A DNA stretch of 64,000 bases from a virus (Duplodnaviria > Caudoviricetes), in the IMG/VR virus record IMGVR_UViG_3300028888_000002. The stretch is one strand, 5' to 3'. Below, in pieces: positions 20,834 to 34,819 of the stretch. How positions within the stretch are numbered: position 1 is the first letter of the stretch; every line of letters starts with the position of its first letter. The position numbers and the translations under genes are program-made. The notes beneath the pieces are model-generated. The model saw only the letters and a program-made list of their open reading frames with translations. It had not been told where the DNA came from and made no database searches.

Positions 20834-21517
20834 TCAAACTCCGATATTCCCGAACAGGTAGAACGGTCCTGTAAGTTGTCGGAGGCGTTGGTTCGCCACG
20901 TCGTAGTATTCCTTGCACAGTTCGGTCCCGATAAACTTTCGGGCTTCCAACACGGCTGCTTCTGCCGTGGTCCCGCTTCCAATGCAGGGGTCAAACACTA
21001 TATCCCCGTGGTTGGAACTAGCCCGTATGAGCCGTCTAAACAGGTCCAGGGGCTTTTCCGTCGGGTGTCGCTTGCTAGACCCGCAGGGGTGTCGCCATAC
21101 GGGGGATTGGCAGAACTCATTGAACGTTGCGTTGGACTTACGCATAAACACGCAGCATTCCACGGACGATAGCCAAAGGTGCTGCCCGTTCATAGGCGAT
21201 GGGTTCGTCTTTTCCCAAATACAGAGCCTTGTAGAAAGCCCCTTGTCAACTCCCGCCTTACGCAGCATAGACACCTGTTCTGTTCCACAGAAAATATAAA
21301 TGCTCCCCTTACAGATACGGATTACCTCGTCCATAAACTTGTCAAGCGGGAACGTTAGAACGTCGGCAGCTTCCTTGTTAATGTGACGCAGCCCGCCTTC
21401 TTCACGGTCGGAACATTCGTCGTAGGGAATATCCGTCAAGACCATATCCACGCAGTTGTCTTCTAGCCTTGCCATATATTCCAGGCAATCCATATTATAG
21501 AGTTTGTTCAATTCCAC
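20834..21517 (-). CDS. DNA N6-adenine/N4-cytosine methyltransferase, beta class (MTase 1)
   Basis: DCLE, TDIPY (motif IV), HPTEKP, DPCIGSGTT (motif I after IV). Confidence 0.9.
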   Translation of the reverse strand: MELNKLYNMDCLEYMARLEDNCVDMVLTDIPYDECSDREEGGLRHINKEAADVLTFPLDKFMDEVIRICKGSIYIFCGTEQVSMLRKAGVDKGLSTRLCIWEKTNPSPMNGQHLWLSSVECCVFMRKSNATFNEFCQSPVWRHPCGSSKRHPTEKPLDLFRRLIRASSNHGDIVFDPCIGSGTTAEAAVLEARKFIGTELCKEYYDVANQRLRQLTGPFYLFGNIGV

Positions 21518-21774: not shown

Positions 21775-23091
21775 TTAGGTTGCGTCTGCTGCGGGTTCGG
21801 CTACGGGTTCGGCAGCAGGCTTTTCAGCGTAGTTGTTGCCGTATTTGGCAGGACGCTTTGTCGCCACAGCGTCTTCGTGTTCTTCCCATTTCGCCCTTAC
21901 ACGTTCTGTGAGTTCCTTCGCCATTTCGGGGTTGTCTTCACACAGCTTAATAAGTTCGTCACGGGTAAATTCTTCGCCAAATTCGTCGTCAAAGTTAGCC
22001 TTGCGTTCGGGGTCTTCGGTAGCCCAACCGATAATCCAATCCACGGAAAGATTAGCGTTGCCTTCCTGGGATTTCTTGTCTTCCCTGCATTCCGCAGTCC
22101 AACCGTTCTTTTCAAGCCACGCTTTAAGGTTGGGGAGGGATTTCTTCTTTGCCGTAGCACTCCAAGCGATAGCGTTAGCAGCCTTTGTGAGCAGCTTGCC
22201 GTCGTCGCCACGCAGGTCAAACAGGTAGTCAATGTTGGAACCGATATTGTCAATACCGTAGTCAAAGTAAGCGGTATAGACGATTTCACGGAACGGACGG
22301 GGTGTCTTTGACTTCGTTGTAACAGCCTTGACGACCACGCCTACCTTTGTGCCCTCACGCTCAATAAATGCGAGCCTGGACAGCTTCAAGCGGGTATGGC
22401 AGTAGAACTCCATAGCGTCACCGTTGCCCGTTTTTTTCTTCGGGGCGAACGCACCCACGGCACCGAAGTTGCAGCGGGTCTGCGACACGATAATGAGCGT
22501 GAGTTTCTTGCGTTCCAACGCCTTGTGCTTGTTACGGAAAAAGTCCTGGGACAAGAACTTTGCGATTTGGGCACCGTAGTCACCGTCGTCCTTGACTTCT
22601 TCACCCTTTGCCTGCTGCTTTGCACGTTTGGCTTCCTTTTCCTTTTTGGTCTTGTCTGCAAGACCGTCCAGGGAGTCCACCGCATAGATACCATACATAT
22701 CTTCGGGCATCCAATTCAGCATATTCGTAAGTTTACCGTCCATTTCTTCAACGGTTTCGGAGTCTTCAAATTTAAGGTTTCCAATCTTACGAACTTCGGG
22801 GTGAATGTTCACACCATACAGGCGTTCGGTCTTGAACGTATCGCCCGTTTCGGAGTCGTCCGACTCCCAAACAAGTTTAGCTTTCGGACCGCCCATAGCC
22901 CAATAGGTTGACGCAATCATTTCGTTCTTGATAAAGGTCTTACCCGCAGAGCTATCGCCCCAAATTTGGATAATGGCACCGAACGGCAAACCATAGACAC
23001 CTTTATCGCCACCAATGAGCAGGTCAAGCAAATCGCTGCCCATACGCACACGGGGTTCTTCCACAACCACGTTTTCTTTCTTTTTAGCCAT
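21775..23091 (-). CDS. recA: RecA/UvsX-like recombinase with a 57-aa C-terminal insertion
   Basis: GSDLLDLLIGG..GLPFGAIIQIWGDSSAGKT (Walker A), AVDSLDGL (Walker B), IIVSQTR, GNGDAMEFY, KSKTPRPFR, YGID. Confidence 0.9.
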   Translation of the reverse strand: MAKKKENVVVEEPRVRMGSDLLDLLIGGDKGVYGLPFGAIIQIWGDSSAGKTFIKNEMIASTYWAMGGPKAKLVWESDDSETGDTFKTERLYGVNIHPEVRKIGNLKFEDSETVEEMDGKLTNMLNWMPEDMYGIYAVDSLDGLADKTKKEKEAKRAKQQAKGEEVKDDGDYGAQIAKFLSQDFFRNKHKALERKKLTLIIVSQTRCNFGAVGAFAPKKKTGNGDAMEFYCHTRLKLSRLAFIEREGTKVGVVVKAVTTKSKTPRPFREIVYTAYFDYGIDNIGSNIDYLFDLRGDDGKLLTKAANAIAWSATAKKKSLPNLKAWLEKNGWTAECREDKKSQEGNANLSVDWIIGWATEDPERKANFDDEFGEEFTRDELIKLCEDNPEMAKELTERVRAKWEEHEDAVATKRPAKYGNNYAEKPAAEPVAEPAADAT

Positions 23092-23105
23092 AGTAATATC
23101 CTGGT

Positions 23106-23140
23106 TAAAAAGGGGCGTTAGCGTGAGCCAACGCCCCCTG
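23106..23140 (-). terminator. intrinsic terminator after ssb
   Basis: GGGGCGTT..AACGCCCC followed by TTTTT on the minus strand. Confidence 0.75.
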
Positions 23141-23157
23141 TTTGTTTACGGGTTATT

Positions 23158-24717
23158 TTACTTCTTGCGAGCCATCAAGCGTTTGCACTTGTCACACTTG
23201 GACCAAATGGCTTCGGGACAACGGCTGCACAAAGGCATTTTTTCACAGTCGGTTCCGAACTCATAACCATTCGGGCATTCGCCTTCGTCCACGTCACGCT
23301 TCGGCACAGACCTCGGAGCGGGCTTTGCAGGCTGTTCTTCGGGCTGTTCGTCGTCAAACGGCATAGTCGGTGCAGGTGCTTCGGAACGGGTCGTTTCTTT
23401 GGACGAATCCTGGTCCACGGCAGTCTTGCGGGAATTGCGACGGGCTGCGGTGTAAGGGTCCGTATTGAAATCGGCTTCGTCAAGGGTAGCGTCTTTCGGT
23501 TCGTTATCCTTGAAGCGGGCAGGGGCTTCGTCCTGTGCAGGGCGACGACGTGCGGGTGCCTCGTCTTCTTCCTGGACGGGGCGACGACGAGCAGGGGCTT
23601 CGTCCTGCGGTTCTTCTGCAACAGGGCGACGACGAGTCGGTGCAGGCTGTTCGTCTTCGGCTTCGTCGGCAACAGGGCGACGACGTGCAGGTGCTTCGTC
23701 CTGCGGTTCTTCGGCAGCAGGACGACGACGTGCCTGTGCGGGCTGTTCGTCTTCTTCAACTTCTGCGTGGCGACGACGATTAGTCGGCTGTTCGTCACCC
23801 ATATCGTCGGACGGGTTGTTATCACGGAAACGTGCAGGTGTAGCCTGTCCTTCGTCGCCTTCGTCGGGCTGATTTTCATAGCCCTCTTCAACGTCGTCGG
23901 GGTCGCCATAAAGAGCAGCTTTAAGTTGGTCGTAGGTCTTAATCACCATCATAGCGTCAAGCGACGGGCACTTTGCGAGAACGTCCGCAGCGATTTCTTC
24001 CTTGCGTTCGTTGAACTCAAAGTTAGCAGCTTTCTTGAATTTCTTGCCGTTGCCCATAGTGTCTTCGTTCACGTTGAACGACACGACACGACCTTCTTCA
24101 ATGGAAGTGTCGGCAAAGTTCACAACGCCCTTGCCACGCATACAGGCGGTGGCACGGTCCTGCAAGTCCTTTGAGAAGACAGCGTGGGACACTTCAAAAA
24201 TCTTCGGGTCTTCGCCCTTGTCGTAAAATTCGTCGGTGAGTTCCTGGACAACGTAAATGCACTTGCGACGGGCAAAGAGCTTGCGGGCTTCGTCCTTTGT
24301 GCGTTCGTCTTTCCAAAGTTCGTCGGCACGTTCGCAAATCGGGCACGGCTTACCGAAGTTTTTCTTCGGGCAAATGTAGTCACCGTTCCCAGGTCCGATG
24401 CGGGTATGCACCATAAGGTCAAGCACGTAATCCAGGTCGCCAACCATAACCTTTGCGGGGTTCGGGTTGCCGTTACGCAGAAATTCGGGTTCGTCCTTTG
24501 TGCGGACAACTTCGGGATGGTTCTTTGTTGCAATCTTCCACGGAAGAATGTTAATGTCGTGGTAAGTGCCAGGGTCGCCCATTTTGAAAAATTTGAGTTT
24601 GGTGGACCCATAGTTCATAAATCCTTGACGGGTTACACCACCGTTGGATTCACGGGTATCTGTTTGCTGTTGGGTGCGACGACCCAGGGACATACGGCTG
24701 CGGTCATATCCTGCCAT
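23158..24717 (-). CDS. T4 gp32-like single-stranded DNA-binding protein with repetitive C-terminal region and terminal Cys cluster
   Basis: H..IG..N..YICPKKNFGKPCPICE zinc motif, long acidic tail, position between uvsY-like and recA. Confidence 0.75.
   Translation of the reverse strand: MAGYDRSRMSLGRRTQQQTDTRESNGGVTRQGFMNYGSTKLKFFKMGDPGTYHDINILPWKIATKNHPEVVRTKDEPEFLRNGNPNPAKVMVGDLDYVLDLMVHTRIGPGNGDYICPKKNFGKPCPICERADELWKDERTKDEARKLFARRKCIYVVQELTDEFYDKGEDPKIFEVSHAVFSKDLQDRATACMRGKGVVNFADTSIEEGRVVSFNVNEDTMGNGKKFKKAANFEFNERKEEIAADVLAKCPSLDAMMVIKTYDQLKAALYGDPDDVEEGYENQPDEGDEGQATPARFRDNNPSDDMGDEQPTNRRRHAEVEEDEQPAQARRRPAAEEPQDEAPARRRPVADEAEDEQPAPTRRRPVAEEPQDEAPARRRPVQEEDEAPARRRPAQDEAPARFKDNEPKDATLDEADFNTDPYTAARRNSRKTAVDQDSSKETTRSEAPAPTMPFDDEQPEEQPAKPAPRSVPKRDVDEGECPNGYEFGTDCEKMPLCSRCPEAIWSKCDKCKRLMARKK
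23515..23790 (-). repeat. tandem coding repeats (E/Q)DE(A/Q)PA(x)RRRP, about 6-7 units, in the SSB tail
   Basis: Repeated GACGAAGCCCCTGC..CGTCGTCGCCCTG units. Confidence 0.8.
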
Positions 24718-24867
24718 ATTGAACTCCTATTTGTTTAGTTTGCGTTTTGCGTTTTGTTTCTGTTCACTATTCACATAACCCTTTGGAGCGGAGAACCCCG
24801 CAGGGTTGATAATTCAATATAGCAACATAGCGACAAAATTGCTATATGTCATACTGAAAACTTTGTG

Positions 24868-25356
24868 TTACCTGCCGTTCAAATGCCTACGGATAGAGTT
24901 CGTGGATTCGTCGCCCGCCCAATCTTCGGCTACGCCTTTGGAACTCAACACGTTAGACTTTGACAGCATCATACGGACGGCACATTCAATCATAGACTTC
25001 TTTTGGTCAAGAGCCTTAACCTTGCCGTCCAACTTTTTAAATTCCTTTGTCTTTTCAACGATAACCTTACGCTGCTCCACCAGGCGGGAGTCGGACGCAA
25101 CCAGGGCTGTGACTTCGGGGATAGTCAACTTGACCTTGTTCTTTTCAGCGTCCTTACGGATTTCAAGTTCAACTTCGCCCTCCATTCGTTTGAGGGTGTC
25201 CGCTGCGTCGTCACGTTCCGCAAGGGCATCCACAGCCAGGTCGCTGTAATAGGCATACAAGGACGACTGCATAGCCACTGCGGGCTGCAAATCCATAAAG
25301 TCAATTTCCAAGTCGGGGTCAACCGTATTTATGGAAAAGTTGTAGTTCCCGTTCAT
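24868..25356 (-). CDS. UvsY-like recombination mediator (coiled coil)
   Basis: DLEID..DL....Q..LY.YY..L...A; KLTIPEV; LDQKKSMIE; context next to ssb/recA. Confidence 0.6.
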   Translation of the reverse strand: MNGNYNFSINTVDPDLEIDFMDLQPAVAMQSSLYAYYSDLAVDALAERDDAADTLKRMEGEVELEIRKDAEKNKVKLTIPEVTALVASDSRLVEQRKVIVEKTKEFKKLDGKVKALDQKKSMIECAVRMMLSKSNVLSSKGVAEDWAGDESTNSIRRHLNGR

Positions 25357-25398
25357 AAGGGTTCCTTTTGTTTAAGGGTTAATCGGGTTAAAAAATAA

Positions 25399-25471
25399 TG
25401 GACGTGACAGGGCTTGAACCTGTAACCGTCGGGTTATGAGTCCGATGCACTAACCATTGTGCTACACGTCC
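25399..25471 (-). tRNA. tRNA with CAT anticodon (Met or Ile2), no encoded CCA
   Basis: GGACGTG acceptor pairs with CACGTCC+A; D arm GCAC-AATGGTTA-GTGC; loop CTCATAA; T arm ACAGG-TTCAAGC-CCTGT. Confidence 0.9.
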
Positions 25472-25483
25472 ATTTCAGCCTAG

Positions 25484-26428
25484 CTACTTCAAGGACCTGT
25501 AAGCAGCCAGGACAATGCCAGGAAATCCCGTGTCATAGGTGTTAATGGCAAATTCTTCCATAACACGGCAAATGCGGTCACTGCTCTTTTTAAGCAGGAT
25601 AGCGGAGCAGTAACCCAGGACGGCACGACGGATAGTTTCAGCGTCAACGTTGCCCTTGAGTTCCCGCAGGGACTTGTTAATTTCATTCCAGGACGGCTTG
25701 CTGTCACAAAGGGCACGGCAAAGGTCCAGGGTATTCGGGTCGTCTTCAAGACCACCCTCCAGGATTTTCAACTGTGCTTCAACGTCGTTGGGGCTTGCCA
25801 TAACCTTTTCAAGTGCAACCAGGGCAGCACGGGGCGAGCCGTCGGCAGATTCAATGATAGCCGTAAGAACCTTGTCGTCCACTTCAAACTTTTCCGCTTC
25901 GGCAGTCCGCAGGACCAACTTGCCCAACTGTCGGGCGTTGAGCGGTTCTAGCTTCCATTGGGTGCTGCGGGTGGCGAGAGCCTTACCCTCGTCGCCTTTA
26001 AGCAACTGCTGTAAGTTCGTTGTGCAGAAGAAGAAATAGACGTGGGCGGGCATATCCTCGGTAGGCTTCAAGAATGCACGTTTAGCGTCTGCGGTCATAC
26101 CGTGGGCTTCGTCAATGATATAGACCACGGACCTGCCTTTAAGGGGCAGAGAACGCATTTGGTCCCTAATGTCACGGACGGTATCAATGCCACGGTTGTC
26201 GGACGTATTGATTTCGTGAATGCTGAAATCGGGGTCAGCGTGAAGCAGCTCCGTAGCGATAATGCGGGCGATTGTGGTCTTGCCTGCACCGCTAGACCCG
26301 TAGATAATGTGGCAGTGCGACACACGCTTCGGGTCCTGTGCGAAATGGGTTTGAATGGCATTGATTACCTCGGTGTTGCCTACCATATCGGCAAACGTCT
26401 TCGGGCGATACACTTGATAAAGTGACAT
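25484..26428 (-). CDS. dnaX: clamp loader, DnaX gamma/tau-like AAA+ ATPase
   Basis: SLYQVYRPKTFADMVG, GSSGAGKTT, RGIDTVR, IIDEAH, AFLKPTE, GSPRAAL. Confidence 0.9.
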   Translation of the reverse strand: MSLYQVYRPKTFADMVGNTEVINAIQTHFAQDPKRVSHCHIIYGSSGAGKTTIARIIATELLHADPDFSIHEINTSDNRGIDTVRDIRDQMRSLPLKGRSVVYIIDEAHGMTADAKRAFLKPTEDMPAHVYFFFCTTNLQQLLKGDEGKALATRSTQWKLEPLNARQLGKLVLRTAEAEKFEVDDKVLTAIIESADGSPRAALVALEKVMASPNDVEAQLKILEGGLEDDPNTLDLCRALCDSKPSWNEINKSLRELKGNVDAETIRRAVLGYCSAILLKKSSDRICRVMEEFAINTYDTGFPGIVLAAYRSLK

Positions 26429-26429
26429 A

Positions 26430-26789
26430 TTACAGATTCCCCAGGGAAATGTTGTATTTGGTGGTTAAGAGTTTTTCCAGGTCGTCCTTGAGCGAAAGGA
26501 CTTCGCCCATATTCGGGTCGTGACCCGTAAAGGTGCGGAGTATAGAAGACGCAAAGTCTTCAAGGTTGGAGTTCGCAAGTTCCTGTTCCTTTTCTTCAAG
26601 TTCTTCTTCCAGGTCTTCAACACGGGAAGCCAGGGTAGCATTGTCGTCTTCAAGGCTATCAATGCGGTCTTCGTATTCTGCCTGGAGTCTATCAATGCCG
26701 TCCTTGATTTCGTCGGCAATATCGGTATATTTTTCTGCAAGGCGGTCAACGTTGTCCTTGATGTCTTGCACGTCGGTATCTGTTACCAT
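26430..26789 (-). CDS. acidic coiled-coil hypothetical protein
   Basis: Start MVTDTD after AACCGAGGA RBS. Confidence 0.65.
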   Translation of the reverse strand: MVTDTDVQDIKDNVDRLAEKYTDIADEIKDGIDRLQAEYEDRIDSLEDDNATLASRVEDLEEELEEKEQELANSNLEDFASSILRTFTGHDPNMGEVLSLKDDLEKLLTTKYNISLGNL

Positions 26790-26835
26790 AGTTAATCCTC
26801 GGTTTTGGGTTAAAACAGTGATACGGGCACACGCT

Positions 26836-27090
26836 TTACGTGTTGACGGGTTCGGCACCCGTGTATTTTTGCAGCAGGCGTTCCACTTCGTTTTTGAAAT
26901 CAAGAACGTCGTTCTGCAACGGCACGGTCCCCGTATATTTTTTGAGAAGTTCATAGCATAACGATTCTGTCGTAATGTTATCCAGGACCGAAGCAGTGTC
27001 CGTCGGGAGCCTGTCAAGGTTATCAAGGGCTTCGGTAACTACCGCTTGAATATCGCCCAGGTATTTCTTTGCAACTTCAAAGTTATTCAT
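26836..27090 (-). CDS. hypothetical protein, paralog of the C-terminus of 26430..26789
   Basis: Shared L.N...E...L...TG..P....VL..K...E.LL..KY pattern. Confidence 0.65.
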   Translation of the reverse strand: MNNFEVAKKYLGDIQAVVTEALDNLDRLPTDTASVLDNITTESLCYELLKKYTGTVPLQNDVLDFKNEVERLLQKYTGAEPVNT

Positions 27091-27127
27091 AGGTTGGTTT
27101 CCTTAATAGGTATATAGTCGTATGGTG

Positions 27128-27910
27128 TCAAATTCCGATATTGCCGTAAATGTAGAACGGTCCCGTCAAGTCCCGCAGACGCTTGTTTGCCACTTCGCAG
27201 TATTCGGTATTTGTTTCAAATCCGATAAATTTGCGGTTTTCCATAACCGCAGCGACGGCAGTAGTCCCGCTACCCATACAGTTATCCAGGACCACTTCGC
27301 CAGGATTCGTGTAGGTTCTCACCAGGTATCGGATTAGGTCAACGGGCTTTTCCGTCGGGTGCAATTTGTTGGCGTGGACGGGCGTAAAGCTAATGATAGA
27401 TACGGGGTGTTTGTCCGTATAGACATTCTGCTGTTTAGCCATTGTATTCTTATGCAGCAGCCCGCAGGTGTTAAGCCCCCCGCCATTTCGCACGGGAACG
27501 TCCCGTAGGGTCTTTTGGGGATAATACCGCATAGAGTGACCGTTGTTGGTGAAACAAGCACTGCTCTTGCTGAATACGCTAATCAATTCGTGGATTCTAC
27601 CGCATTGGTAGTTCATTAGCTGAAAGTTGCTAGGCTTTTCCTTGTTCCAAACCCAATCGTAACGATACATAGCCACGTTGCTCGCACGTAGCAGGCTGCT
27701 GAATGGTTCGGAACCGAACAGGACAATAGCCCCATCTTCACGGATAACCCGCTTATACTGTTCCCACAGCGGTTCAAACGGGATAACAGAATCCCACTTG
27801 CAGGCGGTAGTCCCGTAAGGCAAATCGCAGATTATACAGTCAACGGAGCCGTCGGGGATTTCTTTCATACCCTCCAAACAGTCCATATTGTAAATGCGGT
27901 TCAAATCCAT
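27128..27910 (-). CDS. DNA N6-adenine/N4-cytosine methyltransferase, beta class (MTase 2)
   Basis: DCLEGM, CDLPYG, HPTEKP, DNCMGSGTT. Confidence 0.92.
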   Translation of the reverse strand: MDLNRIYNMDCLEGMKEIPDGSVDCIICDLPYGTTACKWDSVIPFEPLWEQYKRVIREDGAIVLFGSEPFSSLLRASNVAMYRYDWVWNKEKPSNFQLMNYQCGRIHELISVFSKSSACFTNNGHSMRYYPQKTLRDVPVRNGGGLNTCGLLHKNTMAKQQNVYTDKHPVSIISFTPVHANKLHPTEKPVDLIRYLVRTYTNPGEVVLDNCMGSGTTAVAAVMENRKFIGFETNTEYCEVANKRLRDLTGPFYIYGNIGI

Positions 27911-27913
27911 ACG

Positions 27914-28726
27914 CTATACTCCAATGTTTCCGTAGATATAGAACGGACCCGTCAAATCCCGCAGACGCTTGTTCGCCTTGTCAAAGTAATCCTTGTCGGT
28001 TTCAAACCCGATAAACTTACGGTTCTCTAAAACTGCTGCAACAGCAGTCGTCCCGCTACCCATACAGTTATCCAAAATGGTATCACCTGGATTTGAGTAG
28101 GTGCGGACAAGATAACGGATTAGCTCCACAGGTTTCTGTGTCGGGTGGAAGCGTTGGTCCAGGTCGCTCTTGTATTCCTTTGAGTAACTTTGGCAGTGCG
28201 GGATTTTCGCACATACTACGCTAATCGGATAGCGGGTTCCGTCTTCCTGCGGACGGGTCCTGTGCATAGACCCATAGATATTGTTCCCGATAAATTCATT
28301 GTCCTTAAAGGTCTTTCGCTGCGTGAGAAATTCCTTTTTATCCACAAGCCATTTCTGCGGGTTGAACGTAGGCTTCCCCGATTTGGAAAACACAATAATG
28401 TTTTCGTGAAGTTTAAGGTGCTTACTATCCTTGCTGAAACCCGAAGCAGGTTTGTTTTTGAGCCAACACAGTTCTTCCCTAAATTGGGAAATGTTGCTGC
28501 TAATGAGCATACTTGTAAACGGCTGCGAGCCGAACAAAATAATCGGGGCGGTATCTTTACAGATACGGTGGTATTGCTCCCACAGCGGTTCAAACGGAAT
28601 AACAGAATCCCAGGCACAAGAGGTCGTGCCATAAGGTAAATCACAAATGACACAATCCACCGTTCCGTCGGGAATTTCTTTCATTCCAACCAGGCAGTCT
28701 TCGTTATAAATTCTGTTCAGTTCCAT
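27914..28726 (-). CDS. DNA N6-adenine/N4-cytosine methyltransferase, beta class (MTase 3)
   Basis: Start MELNRIY; CDLPYG, HPTQKP, DNCMGSGTT. Confidence 0.92.
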   Translation of the reverse strand: MELNRIYNEDCLVGMKEIPDGTVDCVICDLPYGTTSCAWDSVIPFEPLWEQYHRICKDTAPIILFGSQPFTSMLISSNISQFREELCWLKNKPASGFSKDSKHLKLHENIIVFSKSGKPTFNPQKWLVDKKEFLTQRKTFKDNEFIGNNIYGSMHRTRPQEDGTRYPISVVCAKIPHCQSYSKEYKSDLDQRFHPTQKPVELIRYLVRTYSNPGDTILDNCMGSGTTAVAAVLENRKFIGFETDKDYFDKANKRLRDLTGPFYIYGNIGV

Positions 28727-28727
28727 A

Positions 28728-31412
28728 TCAATGTGCAGCCTCAAACTTCGCCTGCCAATTTTCGGGCATACCCTCGGTCCGCAAGGCTCCCACTTCTGTC
28801 ATTTTAGCCCAGGACCCGTCAACGTAAGACGCATCGGCTTCAATGACAAGCGGAACGCAAATCCACGGAAATTCTTCGCTTACACGCTTCACACCGTTGC
28901 CATAGACAATCTTCGCCACCTTGTCTTCTTCGCCCTCTTTAACGAGAGCAATAATAGCGTCGTGAATTTGTCCGATAATGCAGGAAAGCAAGCCCTGGGA
29001 CTTGAAGTCCTGCAAGTCGTAGGTCAATGCTCGCAGCAAGATATGGAACGCAGACCCTTGAATGCAGCAGTTCGTAGCCTGGGTGTAGCCCATAGGTCCC
29101 CAACAGCGGAAACCCGTGTAGGACTGCACATAGCCCATCTTTTGATAGCGGTCCCATTCGGTCCTACGCCACGCATTATAGACCTTGAAGCGTTGGTTCC
29201 AAAATATATCGTCGCCTTTCTTGACGTGTGCTTCCCACTTTTCGTAGGTCGTAATCTTGTGGTCCTTTGCCAAATGTTCCTTCGTGTAGGCAGGCATATT
29301 GTTCCACATATTTCGGGCACACGACTTGTAGGACGCACCGTAGAACGACGAGAACACATAGCCCGATTTGATAGACGAGCGTTCTTCCTTTGTAAGTTCT
29401 TCGGGCGTTCGGATATACATATCGCAAGCAGTATCACGGTGCATATCCGAAGCGGGGTTCTGCAAGTAGTGAATCATCTGCGGGTCGTGGTGATAGCTTG
29501 CGGACACCATAACTTCCAGGGACTTGTAGTCCATTTCCATAAAGCGGTAGCCCTTTGGAGCCACGAACAACGTTCGCAGGATTTTCTTCATTTCCTTATC
29601 ACGCTTCGGAATGTTTTGAAAGTTCGGGCTGTCAGCCGACGAACGGTAGGTTCGGGGACCCGCATCGTCTTCACCGCCCGCACCCGTTGACAGGTTAAAG
29701 AACGGACGGATTAGGTAGGCTTGCTTTTCTTCGTCCCATACGGCTTCACGTCTGTAGCCATCCAGGAAGTCCATAATCTTTGCCCAACGACGCATTCCCA
29801 AAATGGACTTGCAGAACGGGGTTCCCAACTTTTCCAGGGTGTCGCCCGTAGCGTCTTCCTTACCCGAAGGCGGTTTCAGCTTGCAAATCTTGTAAAGGAC
29901 TTCGGCAATTTGTTTGTTAGAGAGCGGGTTGAAAGTTTCGCCAGGGTGCAGCTTGCACCACTGCTTCGCTTCGTCGGACGCTTTGACGGCTTCTTCGGAT
30001 TCCTTGAACTTGTCTTCAAGTTCCTTTTGCAAGTCGTTAATCCTGCCATAGTCAATCGGCAAACCCTCGGACTGCACACGGGCGAGAGCGTCCATACCTT
30101 TCATAAAGAAGCGGAACGACTTTTCAAGACCAACCATCTGTGCGGACTGAATGTCACGCAGCGGGAGCGTATAAATGGAGTCAAGACCGCAATAGTAGAT
30201 AATGTCGCCTTTGGGGACACCCACGCCCTTTTTGAGCAGGTTAAAGGCGTTGCAGCTCTTTGTGTCTTCCCCGTCCATAATCGTAGAAATGAAATGGTCC
30301 GCTTTGTTGTCGTAGCCGATAACGCCCAATTCACAGTAGGTGTGGAATTTCAGCCCAACCTTTTGGGAGTTGTCTAGGACGTGGGCACCCAGGCAAGTGT
30401 CCCAGGACCAATTATCAATCCAATCTGTGCGGGAGTTATGCAGACCCGCCCTAAACCTGGTCCAACAGGCTTCATAGTCAGCCTTGTGTGCAACCAACCC
30501 TATTTTCTTGTGGTGCGTGAGTTTATACCAGGCATTCACCAGGCGTTCGTTGTCACCGTCCCACCAAATACCGATAGCGTGATACTCACCGTCCTTACGA
30601 TAGCCGACGGACGCAGCCTTGATTTCGTGACCTGCACGGTGGGGTTTCAAGCCCGTGGTTTCGTAATCAATGGAAACGTCGTGATAGCCTTCGGGAGCCT
30701 TGTCAAGTTGGTCTGTTTCAGCCCATTCAATGATTTCTTCAATCCAATCGGCTGCGGTGTCTGCATCGCCTGTGGTGCGAACGTCCGTCGGTATTTTCGG
30801 CAGCGGGGTATCTTTTATTTGATAGGCTAGACGGATATGCTGCGAGAAATACATATACGGGCAACCGTCGTCACGCTGCCAGGTCAAAAATTCGGGCGAG
30901 TAGGTCGGGCAAATCCAACAGTTGTAGAAGCGGTCGGGAATGCGTTTACCGTAAAGGTCCGACGGCTTCGTGTTGCCGATACGTCCGCTCATACGGTCCC
31001 AAATAAGTGCCTGGATAGCTGCGGGACCCATAGGAATGATTACGTTCGGCTTCAATTCGTTAATGAGCCTGTTCAAGCGTTCCTTGCAACAGTCGGGCTT
31101 CGGGTCCTTGTCGTTTTGACACGGGCACGGGATTACATAACCAATCCAGGCGGATTCCAGGAAATCCCTGGGCAGTCCACGCCTACCCTGCAAGTCCCAA
31201 AGATAATCATACATTTTATGTAGGAACACCGTGTCGTGGTCGTTGCCTTCCTTTCCACGGGGGTGGTCGCACAGGAACAGAACCTTGTCCTTGCCCTTAC
31301 CCGCAAACGGTAAATCCTTGCCCGATTGGTCTAATCCGCAGGCTAGACAGCCTGTAAGTTTCGGCTTCGCTGACATTGCTTGAATGGCAGCGGGAATTTT
31401 GAAAAAGCCCAT
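28728..31412 (-). CDS. polA: family A DNA polymerase with N-terminal UDG-family-4-like domain and 3'-5' exonuclease
   Basis: CLAC..CC UDG-like N-terminus; DYETTG exo I; RSSADSPNFQNIP; motif A DYKSLE; motif B RSSIKSGYVFSSFYG; motif C IHDA. Confidence 0.92.
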   Translation of the reverse strand: MGFFKIPAAIQAMSAKPKLTGCLACGLDQSGKDLPFAGKGKDKVLFLCDHPRGKEGNDHDTVFLHKMYDYLWDLQGRRGLPRDFLESAWIGYVIPCPCQNDKDPKPDCCKERLNRLINELKPNVIIPMGPAAIQALIWDRMSGRIGNTKPSDLYGKRIPDRFYNCWICPTYSPEFLTWQRDDGCPYMYFSQHIRLAYQIKDTPLPKIPTDVRTTGDADTAADWIEEIIEWAETDQLDKAPEGYHDVSIDYETTGLKPHRAGHEIKAASVGYRKDGEYHAIGIWWDGDNERLVNAWYKLTHHKKIGLVAHKADYEACWTRFRAGLHNSRTDWIDNWSWDTCLGAHVLDNSQKVGLKFHTYCELGVIGYDNKADHFISTIMDGEDTKSCNAFNLLKKGVGVPKGDIIYYCGLDSIYTLPLRDIQSAQMVGLEKSFRFFMKGMDALARVQSEGLPIDYGRINDLQKELEDKFKESEEAVKASDEAKQWCKLHPGETFNPLSNKQIAEVLYKICKLKPPSGKEDATGDTLEKLGTPFCKSILGMRRWAKIMDFLDGYRREAVWDEEKQAYLIRPFFNLSTGAGGEDDAGPRTYRSSADSPNFQNIPKRDKEMKKILRTLFVAPKGYRFMEMDYKSLEVMVSASYHHDPQMIHYLQNPASDMHRDTACDMYIRTPEELTKEERSSIKSGYVFSSFYGASYKSCARNMWNNMPAYTKEHLAKDHKITTYEKWEAHVKKGDDIFWNQRFKVYNAWRRTEWDRYQKMGYVQSYTGFRCWGPMGYTQATNCCIQGSAFHILLRALTYDLQDFKSQGLLSCIIGQIHDAIIALVKEGEEDKVAKIVYGNGVKRVSEEFPWICVPLVIEADASYVDGSWAKMTEVGALRTEGMPENWQAKFEAAH

Positions 31413-31477
31413 AAATCTTTATTCCGTAAACGTTAAACTTCTGTAATATAGATATAGCACAAGAGCGACTAAAAGAT

Positions 31478-31510
31478 AGAAATGCCGAAGCTATAAAGCC
31501 TCGGCATTCC
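31478..31510 (-). terminator. intrinsic terminator-like hairpin after clamp 1
   Basis: AATGCCGA..TCGGCATT followed by TCTATCTTTT on the minus strand. Confidence 0.6.
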
Positions 31511-31532
31511 TTTCTTACGAGGACACAACAAA

Positions 31533-32630
31533 CTATTTGGTAGCGGTCGCACCCTGGACGAACTGCATAAATTCGCCCGATTGGAAAACAAGGGACAAGG
31601 ACGGGGGAGCCGTCGGGTCCATATCCATATAGCAAAGGGTAAAGTCCATAACCTTGTTGGACGCTTCCAACAAGAACGAAGTGTTTACCCAAACTTCGGT
31701 GTTCTGCGGGTCTTCTTCAAGTTCGGTTTCCCACGGGATAGTTTCGGACGCTTCACCGCCTGTCTTTTCGGCATACAGTTCAAGTTCGTCCTTACGGAAC
31801 GTCAAACGCACCATACGGGCATTCTTCTTGTCAACGCCCGAAGCCAGGATAGCCACACGGGACACGGCTTCTGCGATATTGTTCGGAAGACGACCCTTGA
31901 CGAGAACCTTTGCTTTTTCAAATGCGGTCGGGAACGTAGAAAGACCGTCAAACGGATATGCTACGTGGTCCTTACGCTTTGCAGAAAACACGGTGCCGTC
32001 GGCATACTTGAGGTGCAACCAGGCATCGCTTACGCAGTAGCCCGTCGGGGTGCCCACCTTGAAAGCGTTGTTGAACACCGTATCGTCAACCCAAAACGGG
32101 TCCATACGTTCGGACAACTTGTTAATGCAGACACGCACGGAGTCGGTTTCATAGACTGCGGAGCCTTCGCCATAGTCATTCACTGCAACGCCACGGATAT
32201 TTTCAGCGTTACCCGAAAGATTACAGATATTCACAGCGTCAATGAATGCTTCGGGGAGGGGCTTGTATTCAAGCGACACCACGTTAAGGTCACGAATAAG
32301 GTTCATTACTTTGGACGAATCCTGGAGGGTCATAGTAGCCTTTGTGCGACCCGCCTTGATTTTAACCTTTGAGTCCACGACTTCAAGCGACAAGGTAACG
32401 TCGGACATACGGGAAACAAGGTTAAAGAAGTCCGCACCCTTTACAGAGAACGAAACGTTCTGCGTGTCGCACGGGGCAGACACAGCGATTTCGCTGTTGT
32501 AGGAACTGACAGACGCACCCGTGAAAAGAAGGAGGTCCGTGCCGTCAATCAAAGTGTTGCCTGTTTCAACACCAGGCATTACCTTTTTGAGAGATTCAAT
32601 GAGTTTAGCTTTTTCAATTTGGATTGCCAT
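31533..32630 (-). CDS. sliding clamp, DnaN/beta-like (clamp 1)
   Basis: 365 aa; I.K..L..SL..V, SYNSEIAVS, F.V....F.NLV, ETDSVR, YPF, AVSRVAILA; next to the polymerase. Confidence 0.75.
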   Translation of the reverse strand: MAIQIEKAKLIESLKKVMPGVETGNTLIDGTDLLLFTGASVSSYNSEIAVSAPCDTQNVSFSVKGADFFNLVSRMSDVTLSLEVVDSKVKIKAGRTKATMTLQDSSKVMNLIRDLNVVSLEYKPLPEAFIDAVNICNLSGNAENIRGVAVNDYGEGSAVYETDSVRVCINKLSERMDPFWVDDTVFNNAFKVGTPTGYCVSDAWLHLKYADGTVFSAKRKDHVAYPFDGLSTFPTAFEKAKVLVKGRLPNNIAEAVSRVAILASGVDKKNARMVRLTFRKDELELYAEKTGGEASETIPWETELEEDPQNTEVWVNTSFLLEASNKVMDFTLCYMDMDPTAPPSLSLVFQSGEFMQFVQGATATK

Positions 32631-32683
32631 TGTAGGTTTCCTTTATGTTGTTGTGTTCACGATAGGTATATAGTCGCATAGCG

Positions 32684-33313
32684 TCAATTACACGCTTTCT
32701 TGAATGCGTCCCAACGTTCGTCGTCTGCGTCAAAGCCTTCCAGGATAATGGGGGCTGCTTCGTGTGCATAGGGCAGGGCACGGACCGTGTTGTATTCGTA
32801 AAATTCTTCTGCGTCACGCAGTTTCAGTTCTTGCAGCAGTTCGGGATTTTGGAGTTCTTCTTCGGAGTATTCGCCCTTGTGGAGTTCCATAATATCCTTG
32901 TCGTCGTAGTCGTCTGCAAGACACTTGATACAGAGCTGTCTTTCATACACTGCAACAGTGACCTGGACTTCTTCGGTAAACTCACGGTCAAACAGGAACT
33001 TGCGATAATCGTCCCTGGCGACCCAAGACTTAATCCACCCCACCGAAAGTTCGTTGTTGCCCGTTTCTGCCACAAGCTGCATCCTGCACGACGACAAGAG
33101 GTCATTTGCGGTAAGCCATTTTTCCAGGTCTTTAAGGGTGTATTCCTTGTCCCTGGTCCTGGTGACTTCCGTTGTGCCAATCATAGCCTTTTCAAGCCCG
33201 TGCAGAATGCAAATGTTGTCACCCTCAAATTCGTCACGGCAGGTCGCTTCGTCAAATCGTTCCTTGACGAGTGCCCCGCAGTGGTCCAAATTGTATTCGG
33301 TATTCTGTTCCAT
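32684..33313 (-). CDS. conserved-type phage hypothetical protein carrying a 57-aa insertion homologous to the RecA insertion
   Basis: GLEKAMIG [insert] VAVYERQLCI...AEEFYEYNT...PII. Confidence 0.75.
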   Translation of the reverse strand: MEQNTEYNLDHCGALVKERFDEATCRDEFEGDNICILHGLEKAMIGTTEVTRTRDKEYTLKDLEKWLTANDLLSSCRMQLVAETGNNELSVGWIKSWVARDDYRKFLFDREFTEEVQVTVAVYERQLCIKCLADDYDDKDIMELHKGEYSEEELQNPELLQELKLRDAEEFYEYNTVRALPYAHEAAPIILEGFDADDERWDAFKKACN

Positions 33314-33337
33314 ATTATCCTCGGTTTTGTCGGTTAA

Positions 33338-34819
33338 TTATCTACGGGGGCGACCGCCACGGCTACCCGTGCGTCTTCCCGTCCGTCTTGCGGGCATACT
33401 GTCTTCGTCTTCGCTGCCGTCCCATTGTTCTTCCTGGCTCATATCCACACGGGACAACAGTTCGCATTCCATATAAGGTCTGCCGATAGCCAAACAGGTG
33501 GTGCAGACAACAGAATCCTGGACGGGGGCACCGTCACGGGTCGTATTGCAGGCAAGGCGGGTAATGCCACGCTTCTTTTCTGTGGGCGTGTGGTTAATCG
33601 TAATCATTTTGGTTACGTGAGCCACCTTTCGTATATCTTCGGACACCTGGTTTTCGGCTGCGTCCTGTTCGCCACCCACGGTAGCACGTCCCGTTTGGGA
33701 AACGGTTGCGAGCATACACTTACGGGTGCTTGCAAGACCACGAAGGGCTTTCCAACAGCGGTTAATCTTTTCACGTTCGTCGCTGCCAGGTCCCAGGTCC
33801 ATAATGTCTGCGTAGTCCACGCAGATAACTTCGGGTGCCCAACCGTTATAGACTTCCATATCCTTGAGTTCGGCTTCAAGACCCTTTACAGACAGGGTGC
33901 CTGTCGGGAACGTTCGCAGCTCAAACTTGTCGTTACGGGTAATCTTTCGGAACGCAGCCTGGGCTTTCTCAATGCCCTCAATGCTTGCGTCCACCCTATG
34001 CGACGGTTCGCTAACGTCGGCAAGTTGAGCGTTGCCCTCGTCGTCATAGACCATAACGGGATAATGCAATTCTTCGCCATAGCGGGACGACCCCGTAAGC
34101 ATTTGCCAAAATCTACGGACAACCTGCTTTTCGGACATTTCTAGCGAAACGTAAAGGACGTGCTTTCCCTGCAACGCAGCCTGGACCGCAATAGTCATAA
34201 GCCACCAGGTCTTACCGCTTTTCGGTGGACCGATAACGGCTACGAAGTCTTCCTGGATAAATGGACCGATTACGCTGCCCAGGACACCAGGCATTGTAAA
34301 GATTTCTTCTTCCTCGTTGACGAAAGCGTTGGCGATTGTGGCAGCGTCCCTAAACAGGTTCACGACCTGTGCCTGTCGCACGTCGGGCTTCGTAAATTCC
34401 GCAATAGCGTGATACCCGCTAGATACGTCCCCGTTTTGAATGGCACGGTTCAATTTTTCCGTTAGCAAGACCAGGGTGCGTTTCTGCAAATACTTGATAG
34501 CATTGTCGGTAGCCAGGGCTTCGTTTGTCGGCAACCATTCGTCGGACGCAGTGTCAAGAAAAGCCTTGACCATTTCCCCGTCGGCTTCTTTGAGTTCCGT
34601 ATAACGGTTGGCGTAAATGTCACTAATTGCCGTCTTCGGTGCTTCGCCATAGCGGTCATAGAAAGTCAAGACCCACGACGAAACAATCTTGCCCATATTG
34701 CTTTCAAACAGGATAGGGTCACACGACTTTCGGCATTTAGCCAAAAGGGGCGTGGACATAATCATATTCGCTAAAAGCCTACGTTCTTCGCTTATATCTA
34801 CTTTTTGGCGTTGGAGCAT
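33338..34819 (-). CDS. DnaB-like replicative helicase
   Basis: GPPKSGKT, YVSLEMS, VICVDYADIM, LRGLA, TVSQT, SEDIRK. Confidence 0.88.
   Translation of the reverse strand: MLQRQKVDISEERRLLANMIMSTPLLAKCRKSCDPILFESNMGKIVSSWVLTFYDRYGEAPKTAISDIYANRYTELKEADGEMVKAFLDTASDEWLPTNEALATDNAIKYLQKRTLVLLTEKLNRAIQNGDVSSGYHAIAEFTKPDVRQAQVVNLFRDAATIANAFVNEEEEIFTMPGVLGSVIGPFIQEDFVAVIGPPKSGKTWWLMTIAVQAALQGKHVLYVSLEMSEKQVVRRFWQMLTGSSRYGEELHYPVMVYDDEGNAQLADVSEPSHRVDASIEGIEKAQAAFRKITRNDKFELRTFPTGTLSVKGLEAELKDMEVYNGWAPEVICVDYADIMDLGPGSDEREKINRCWKALRGLASTRKCMLATVSQTGRATVGGEQDAAENQVSEDIRKVAHVTKMITINHTPTEKKRGITRLACNTTRDGAPVQDSVVCTTCLAIGRPYMECELLSRVDMSQEEQWDGSEDEDSMPARRTGRRTGSRGGRPRR

What the first reader, a model, noticed from the sequence alone, without database searches (positions are those of the whole stretch)
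21970..33139. Same 57-aa domain inserted in RecA and in an unrelated phage protein
Seen: RecA residues encoded at 21970-22140 (SLPNLKAWLEKNGWTAECREDKKSQEGNANLSVDWIIGWATEDPERKANFDDEFGEE) align without gaps to 32969-33139 in ORF 32684..33313 (TLKDLEKWLTANDLLSSCRMQLVAETGNNELSVGWIKSWVARDDYRKFLFDREFTEE). They share 24/57 identities, including three Trp, CR, GN, LSV, RK and FD.EF.EE. From my recollection of these families, the segment interrupts otherwise contiguous sequence in both: GL..A.IG|VAVY in the hypothetical protein, and the C-terminal domain in RecA. Inference: a small mobile helical module used as a homotypic docking domain, or a decoy/regulator that mimics the RecA surface.
Basis: partly seen in the sequence, partly recalled or inferred. 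Interest (0 to 1): 0.7.

Follow-up and report, generated by a model that had tools for sequence, protein, structure and literature searches.

The report
RecA tail module grafted elsewhere
A small four-helix piece of a rumen phage's RecA recombinase has been copied into the tip of a hairpin in an unrelated small replication-region protein; the copy is real and kept by selection, but its function is still unknown.

Summary
Both genes are on the minus strand. The two 57-aa segments share 24/57 identities (Smith-Waterman z = 18.8; BLASTP E = 3e-12), and nothing outside them is homologous.

The segment folds as a compact four-helix unit in both proteins.
- **Small protein (209 aa, phrog_13182-like):** it is a true insertion at a beta-hairpin tip. 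Close relatives of 141-148 aa lack it exactly.
- **RecA:** it is a fixed part of the C-terminal domain across a large family of uncultured-phage RecAs. Only deeper relatives of 333-376 aa lack it.

The small-protein copies form one clade nested among the RecA modules of this phage group, so the likeliest history is one RecA-to-small-protein copy. That copy is under purifying selection (dN/dS 0.1-0.3). It is nevertheless present or absent among near-identical core sequences.

No Pfam family, solved structure or third host protein was found. Function is inferred only: an accessory protein-interaction module that may link the small protein, encoded between helicase and clamp, to recombination. 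The proposed docking or decoy roles are untested, and several surface positions differ between the two copies. This is a new variant of ordinary domain shuffling, of moderate interest.

The parts
21775..23091 (-). RecA-type recombinase gene (438 aa)
   Evidence: Pfam RecA 54.7 bits against a cut-off of 27. phrog_97 UvsX-like, 1e-29. AF2 model pLDDT 91.8. Best Foldseek matches are E. coli RecA, about 1e-18.
21970..22140 (-). Four-helix module inside the RecA C-terminal domain (residues 318-374; helices 319-328, 332-343, 350-359, 361-371)
   Evidence: Conserved in all 77 aligned family members. Absent from deeper RecA relatives of 333-376 aa.
21865..21969 (-). Terminal alpha-hairpin of the RecA C-terminal domain (residues 375-409). 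It is shared with module-free RecAs and may be the template from which the module arose by duplication.
   Evidence: Aligns with module-free relatives. Weak Pfam RecA_C hit at 377-402. hhalign of the second module hairpin against this hairpin: P = 1.3e-6, probability 91%.
32684..33313 (-). Small conserved protein of unknown function (209 aa, phrog_13182-like core) that carries the copied module
   Evidence: Insertion-free relatives hit phrog_13182 at 3.5e-7 to 2e-11.
32969..33139 (-). Copy of the four-helix module (residues 59-115; helices 60-69, 73-84, 91-98, 102-112) at the tip of a beta-hairpin (strands 44-55 and 113-124)
   Evidence: AF2 pLDDT 94-97 over the module. Missing exactly in the 141-148-aa and 203-aa homologues.
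33338..34819 (-). Context: DnaB-like replicative helicase, immediately upstream of the small protein in the same orientation
   Evidence: Pfam DnaB_C and phrog_19, 6.5e-41. The synteny is conserved in relatives with and without the insert.
31533..32630 (-). Context: beta-type sliding clamp, immediately downstream of the small protein
   Evidence: Pfam DNA_pol3_beta_3 and phrog_947. Synteny.
23158..24717 (-). Context: gp32-like ssDNA-binding protein directly upstream of RecA. It has a long acidic/Arg-rich repeat linker and a C-terminal Cys cluster.
   Evidence: Pfam gp32, 1.5e-9. Alignment A6.

Best explanation
The 57-aa segment is a self-contained four-helix domain made of two alpha-hairpins.

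Shown: it is a fixed component of the C-terminal domain of a large family of RecA recombinases from uncultured phages. It sits between the last beta-strand and the terminal alpha-hairpin of the canonical RecA C-terminal domain. It may have arisen there by duplication of that hairpin (suggestive only).

Shown: in one lineage of phages from sheep and cattle gut, whose relatives lie on contigs of about 210-230 kb, one copy of exactly this unit sits on the tip of a beta-hairpin of an unrelated small protein. That protein is encoded between the replicative helicase and the sliding clamp. The copy diverged to 42% identity and is held under purifying selection. It is present or absent among closely related phages, so it is an optional accessory domain and not part of the host protein's core.

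Inferred: RecA was the donor. This rests on the tree and on how widely each form is distributed.

Inferred, not shown: it works as a protein-protein interaction (adaptor) module that connects the small replication-module protein to the recombination machinery. This would resemble T4, where UvsX and the helicase loader gp59 share the gp32 C-terminal hub. DNA binding seems unlikely because the copies are net acidic.
For: - Real homology confined to the module.
- Same four-helix secondary structure, predicted with high confidence in both hosts.
- Exact insertion-free homologues of the small protein.
- The module is present in all 77 aligned RecA homologues and absent in deeper RecAs of 333-376 aa that share the same gene order.
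- The small-protein copies are monophyletic (SH-aLRT 93) and nested in the clade of RecA modules closest to the window's RecA (SH-aLRT 90).
- A phage with an insertion-free small protein still has a module-bearing RecA.
- dN/dS is 0.10-0.30 in the module against 0.10-0.34 in the core.
- Natural variants in other samples keep the frame, with 4 synonymous and 3 conservative changes in the module.
- On the core tree the insert state needs at least 3-4 changes. Insertion-free P0035 is 93% identical in its core to insert-bearing P0018.
- The helicase / small protein / clamp / PolA ... clamp loader / gp32 / RecA gene order is conserved.
- T4 precedent for a shared gp32 hub (PMC3016280).
- Net charge of the small-protein copies is -3 to -7.
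Against: - No binding partner has been shown.
- Several positions conserved in RecA modules (K22, K23, P44, G55) are replaced in the small-protein copy by other conserved residues (L/I/A at 22-24, Y45, L49, R52). The two copies therefore need not bind the same thing.
- The module tree rests on 57 columns and is weakly resolved.
- A third, unsampled donor cannot be excluded.
- The core function of the small protein is unknown, and no structural match was informative.
- The gp32-like protein's tail does not co-vary with presence of the RecA module.
Confidence: 0.6

Rival explanations
1. Decoy or regulator. The small protein displays a RecA C-terminal-domain look-alike. It competes with RecA for a partner or caps RecA filaments, so that recombination is tuned during replication.
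For: The module comes from the RecA C-terminal domain. In bacterial RecA that domain is described as the dsDNA-binding one (PMC12890299). Presence/absence polymorphism and faster amino-acid change than the core fit an accessory regulatory role.
Against: Surface-type positions conserved in RecA modules are not conserved in the small-protein copy. No binding evidence exists.
Confidence: 0.15
2. Homotypic docking. The two module copies bind each other, which recruits the small protein onto RecA filaments.
For: Only the shared origin of the two copies.
Against: There is no sign of co-evolution. The window's small-protein copy is as similar to a distant RecA module (45%, L012) as to its own RecA's (42%). 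Phages with an insertion-free small protein keep the RecA module.
Confidence: 0.08
3. Passenger or re-purposed scaffold. A stable mini-domain whose ends lie close together was tolerated at a hairpin tip. It has since acquired a role unrelated to RecA, or a purely structural one such as oligomerisation of the small protein.
For: New conserved hydrophobic positions in the small-protein copy (M/V20, L22, I23, A24, Y45, F48, L49) that RecA modules lack. Insertion-free alleles persist in close relatives.
Against: Purifying selection similar to the core rules out neutral junk. It does not rule out a new function.
Confidence: 0.2
4. Both proteins acquired the module independently from a third, mobile source.
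For: The same 57-aa unit is the indel in both families.
Against: No third host was found in an exhaustive HMMER search with the RecA C-terminal region, in a profile search with the module, or in six-frame scans of the window and loci. The small-protein copies are nested within RecA copies.
Confidence: 0.07

Closest known systems
Bacterial RecA C-terminal domain (Pfam RecA_C, PF21096; E. coli RecA residues ~270-352)
   Same: The host protein is a RecA with a RecA-like C-terminal domain. HMMER aligns the first module helix with the E. coli C-terminal helix (...ATAWLKDNPE...). The terminal hairpin weakly hits RecA_C.
   Different: [quoted passage not shown] The module alone matches no Pfam family.
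T4 UvsX / gp32 / gp59 hub (shared docking of recombinase and helicase loader on the gp32 C-terminal domain)
   Same: Same kind of gene set: gp32-like SSB next to the recombinase, and a small protein next to the replicative helicase. A shared interaction element on recombinase and replisome factor would work like the T4 hub (PMC3016280).
   Different: No homology of the small protein to gp59. No evidence that either module copy binds the gp32-like protein. In T4 the shared element is on gp32, not a domain common to its clients.
Domain insertion or shuffling in phage proteins (ordinary modular evolution); inteins as inserted elements
   Same: A discrete foldable unit inserted in a surface hairpin, with presence/absence among relatives.
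   Different: The donor is a sub-domain of the phage lineage's own RecA. It is not an intein: 57 aa, no splicing-junction residues, and it is retained in the mature sequence. True inteins do occur elsewhere in this RecA family.
phrog_13182 (small phage proteins of unknown function)
   Same: The core of the small protein matches it. Shape neighbours are 88-116-aa viral hypothetical proteins.
   Different: Carries the RecA-derived insert. Other relatives carry a different C-terminal extension (phrog_34775) instead.

Membership tests
RecA (PF00154) | Profile match above Pfam's gathering score | tested here: met
   54.7 bits against a cut-off of 27.
RecA (PF00154) | RecA fold: ATPase core with P-loop, N-terminal helix, C-terminal domain | tested here: met
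   AF2 model pLDDT 91.8. Foldseek best hits are E. coli and M. tuberculosis RecA, E about 1e-18 to 1e-15. P-loop GDSSAGKT at residues 45-52.
RecA (PF00154) | Strand-exchange / DNA-dependent ATPase activity | not testable with these tools
   Needs biochemistry.
RecA_C (PF21096) canonical C-terminal domain | Profile match above the gathering score | tested here: inconclusive
   12.9 bits against a cut-off of 27, on residues 377-402 only. The structural alignment to RecA extends into the C-terminal domain.
T4-type UvsX | Closer to UvsX than to bacterial RecA | tested here: not met
   phrog_97 matches. However, the solved UvsX (9gbg) scores 9.6e-6 against 3e-14 for E. coli RecA, and all top structural hits are bacterial RecA.
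Intein / self-splicing insert | About 130 aa or more, with Cys/Ser/Thr at both junctions and a C-terminal His-Asn | tested here: not met
   The insert is 57-65 aa, ends in ...FTEE / ...FGEE, and has no HN.
HeH/SAP-like (Pfam Ish1 PF10281) | Profile match above the gathering score | tested here: not met
   E = 0.011-0.077, 13.8-16.5 bits against a cut-off of 26.6. Only 2 of 37 module copies give any hit.
phrog_13182 (small-protein core) | Profile match | tested here: met
   Insertion-free relatives score 3.5e-7 to 2e-11. The window protein itself scores only 0.0018 because the insert splits the match.

The most novel reading that the evidence does not exclude
The small protein is a phage-encoded modulator of RecA that works through a grafted piece of RecA's own C-terminal domain. 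It would occupy the site that this module contacts on the filament or on a shared partner, and so switch the replisome between replication and recombination-dependent replication. This would be a regulator built by self-mimicry of the recombinase.
Probability: 0.15. Interest if true: 0.75.

Novelty: new variant of a known kind. Interest (0 to 1): 0.45.

Why it matters
The finding defines an undescribed four-helix sub-domain that enlarges the C-terminal domain of a widespread family of uncultured-phage RecAs. About 100 clusters at 50% identity match this C-terminal region.

It also gives a clean, datable example of a recombinase sub-domain being reused in a replication-module protein. Natural allele pairs of the small protein, with and without the module, differ by little else in their core. 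They are ready-made controls for asking what the module binds.

If the two copies share a partner, that would reveal a physical link between recombination and replication in a large, uncultured group of rumen phages. If they do not, it remains an ordinary case of domain shuffling.

Tried and rejected
- **Complex prediction.** Complex prediction on full RecA plus the small protein returned 'no answer' (score 0.00, controls not run). It says nothing for or against binding.
- **Third host protein: none found.**
  - Exhaustive HMMER search with RecA residues 270-438.
  - Profile search with the module, longer proteins. Candidates were crowded, so this is weak evidence.
  - Six-frame HMM scan of the window and 20 loci.
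  - The apparent non-RecA hits were intein-bearing RecAs plus one spurious EF-hand repeat protein.
- **'Stand-alone' module proteins.** P0242 and P0263 are RecA genes cut off by contig ends.
- **Homology outside the module.** Rejected: hhalign probability about 1%. BLASTP's upstream extension is therefore not meaningful.
- **Known fold for the small protein or module.** Foldseek PDB had no hit at E <= 0.001. VIA wide gave a best Z of 5.7, generic helical matches. BFVD gave none. The Atlas gave only small viral hypothetical proteins. Language-model neighbours were uninformative.
- **GenBank phages.** No DNA or small-protein match. Only Vibrio-phage RecAs at about 30% identity matched, covering residues 40-290 without the module.
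- **gp32-tail co-variation with the RecA module.** The acidic linker and C-terminal Cys cluster occur with module-free RecA too.
- **Literature.** Searches found no description of the module.
- **Transcription.** RNA-library contigs cover the gene, but this does not show that it is transcribed.
Full report
**1. The observation**

The two ORFs are on the minus strand: RecA-like at 21775..23091 (438 aa) and the small ORF at 32684..33313 (209 aa). The plus strand does not.

The segments share 24/57 identities without gaps. The local alignment score is 116, against 24.3 +/- 4.9 in 20,000 shuffles (z = 18.8, maximum 59). BLASTP of the whole proteins gives E = 3e-12. DNA identity is 51%, so this is an old, diverged copy and not an assembly artefact. 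Independent bovine-gut and gut DNA runs carry the insert-bearing gene in single contigs with only point differences.

**2. What the two host proteins are**

The 438-aa protein is a genuine RecA.
- Pfam RecA scores 54.7 bits.
- The AF2 model has pLDDT 91.8.
- The best structural matches are E. coli and mycobacterial RecA.
- Solved RecA sequences match better than the solved phage UvsX.

The 209-aa protein has no Pfam family. Its insertion-free relatives match phrog_13182, of unknown function. Its nearest shapes are small viral hypothetical proteins.

With the module removed from both, profile-profile comparison finds no relationship (probability about 1%). The hosts are unrelated.

The genes lie in one replication/recombination block. 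Its order is DnaB-like helicase, small protein, beta clamp, family-A polymerase with a UDG-like N-terminus, methyltransferases, clamp loader, an unknown ORF, gp32-like SSB, RecA. This order is conserved in relatives.

**3. Is it an insertion?**

*In the small protein: yes.* Among 45 homologues, 24 carry the segment. Twenty do not and join ...GTAEVGDH directly to TVAVYER.... These are the 141-148-aa forms and the forms of about 203-246 aa that carry a different C-terminal extension. The AF2 model places the segment as four helices (pLDDT 94-97) at the tip of a beta-hairpin.

*In RecA: yes, but only relative to deep relatives.* All 77 aligned homologues, down to 25% identity (most are 30% or more), have the segment. 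Only deeper relatives of 333-376 aa lack it, joining I.WD directly to the ...RDELI... hairpin. One of these sits in the same PolA / clamp-loader / gp32 / RecA gene order.

In RecA, however, it is an ancient, fixed family feature.

**4. Anatomy of the module**

In RecA the module consists of helices 319-328, 332-343, 350-359 and 361-371. The terminal hairpin (377-386, 388-409) follows and is shared with all RecAs.

Three results suggest, but do not prove, that the module arose by tandem duplication of the C-terminal alpha-hairpin:
- HMMER aligns the first module helix with the E. coli RecA C-terminal helix.
- Pfam RecA_C weakly matches the terminal hairpin.
- hhalign relates the second module hairpin to the terminal hairpin (P = 1.3e-6, probability 91%), and more weakly the first to the second (P = 2e-4).

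The module alone matches no Pfam family. Nothing convincing turned up in the PDB.

**5. Direction and history**

On a tree of 85 module copies, the eight small-protein copies form one group (SH-aLRT 93). That group is nested inside the group of RecA modules closest to the window's RecA (SH-aLRT 90). With only 57 columns the tree is weakly resolved. Even so, one RecA-to-small-protein copy is the simplest reading.

A related phage with an insertion-free small protein still has a module-bearing RecA.

On a tree of the small protein's core, built with the insert columns removed, the insert state needs at least 3-4 changes. Insertion-free P0035 and P0038 are nested within insert-bearing clades, and P0035's core is 93% identical to that of P0018. 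Their hairpin turns resemble those of other insertion-free alleles. Higher dS in the module than in the core for some pairs also fits exchange between alleles by recombination.

There is no sign of within-genome concerted evolution. The window's copy is as close to a distant RecA module (45%) as to its own RecA's (42%).

**6. Selection**

dN/dS is 0.10-0.30 in the module and 0.10-0.34 in the core. Variants seen in other samples are 4 synonymous and 3 conservative changes in the module, with no indels. The copy is functional and not decaying.

**7. Function (inferred)**

Residues shared by both contexts are mainly core hydrophobics plus C18, G27, D43, R46 and the F..EE end.

Several positions differ systematically. 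RecA modules keep K22, K23, P44 and G55. The small-protein copies keep L/I/A at 22-24, Y45, L49 and R52. The copies are net acidic, -3 to -7 in the small protein, which makes direct DNA binding unlikely.

The best reading is an accessory protein-interaction domain that ties the helicase-adjacent small protein to the recombination machinery. T4 offers a precedent, where UvsX, UvsY, gp59 and Dda share the gp32 C-terminal hub (PMC3016280). No partner is shown.

The gp32-like tail does not co-vary with the RecA module. The decoy, homotypic-docking and re-purposed-scaffold readings remain open. The surface differences argue against faithful mimicry.

**8. Comparison and novelty**

The RecA is a member of the RecA family with an enlarged C-terminal domain. 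The module is an undescribed sub-domain, found only in uncultured phages. GenBank phages have only module-free, distant RecAs. Searches of the literature found no description.

The event itself is ordinary modular evolution: a domain copied and inserted in a loop. The unusual points are the donor (a piece of the lineage's own recombinase) and the recipient (a replication-module protein).

Verdict: real, well-defined, moderately interesting, function open.

Noticed in passing
L017 / L019 (record G005), and proteins P0122, P0173, P0208, P0229: Several RecA genes of this family are interrupted near the P-loop by inteins with LAGLIDADG homing-endonuclease domains. Open frames run 597-872 aa; the G005 RecA has an 820-aa frame.
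   Followed up: partly
window 23158-24717 (-): The gp32-like SSB is 519 aa. It has about six tandem acidic/Arg-rich repeats (...DEAPARRRP...) and a conserved C-terminal Cys cluster (CPNGYEFG..C...C..CP). The Cys cluster is also present in distant relatives (A6).
   Followed up: partly
window 20834-21517, 27128-27910, 27914-28744 (all -): Three N6/N4-type DNA methyltransferase genes, two of them adjacent, with near-identical C-terminal ends (...RLRDLTGPFYIYGNIG.).
   Followed up: no
window 28728-31412 (-): The family-A DNA polymerase carries an N-terminal UDG-superfamily domain (Pfam UDG, 2.8e-4). The same fusion occurs in distant relatives (L022, L023).
   Followed up: no
proteins P0039-P0050 (relatives of the small protein): Insertion-free relatives of about 203-246 aa carry a different addition: a C-terminal extension of about 55 aa matching phrog_34775. 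The small protein has therefore accreted different modules in different lineages.
   Followed up: partly
L005 10624-11508 and L006 9058-10001: Extra stretches of about 0.9 kb lie between small protein and clamp (L005) or between helicase and small protein (L006). These are probably inserted genes. They were not examined.
   Followed up: no
L009 8757-10396: In a more distant phage the small-protein homologue (49% identity, no insert) lies next to a phrog_1297 ATPase instead of the DnaB-like helicase and clamp.
   Followed up: partly
window 32400-33600: The phage region occurs in sheep and bovine gut metagenomes from many studies. It also appears in contigs of a sheep-gut metatranscriptome library, which is not proof of transcription.
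   Followed up: partly
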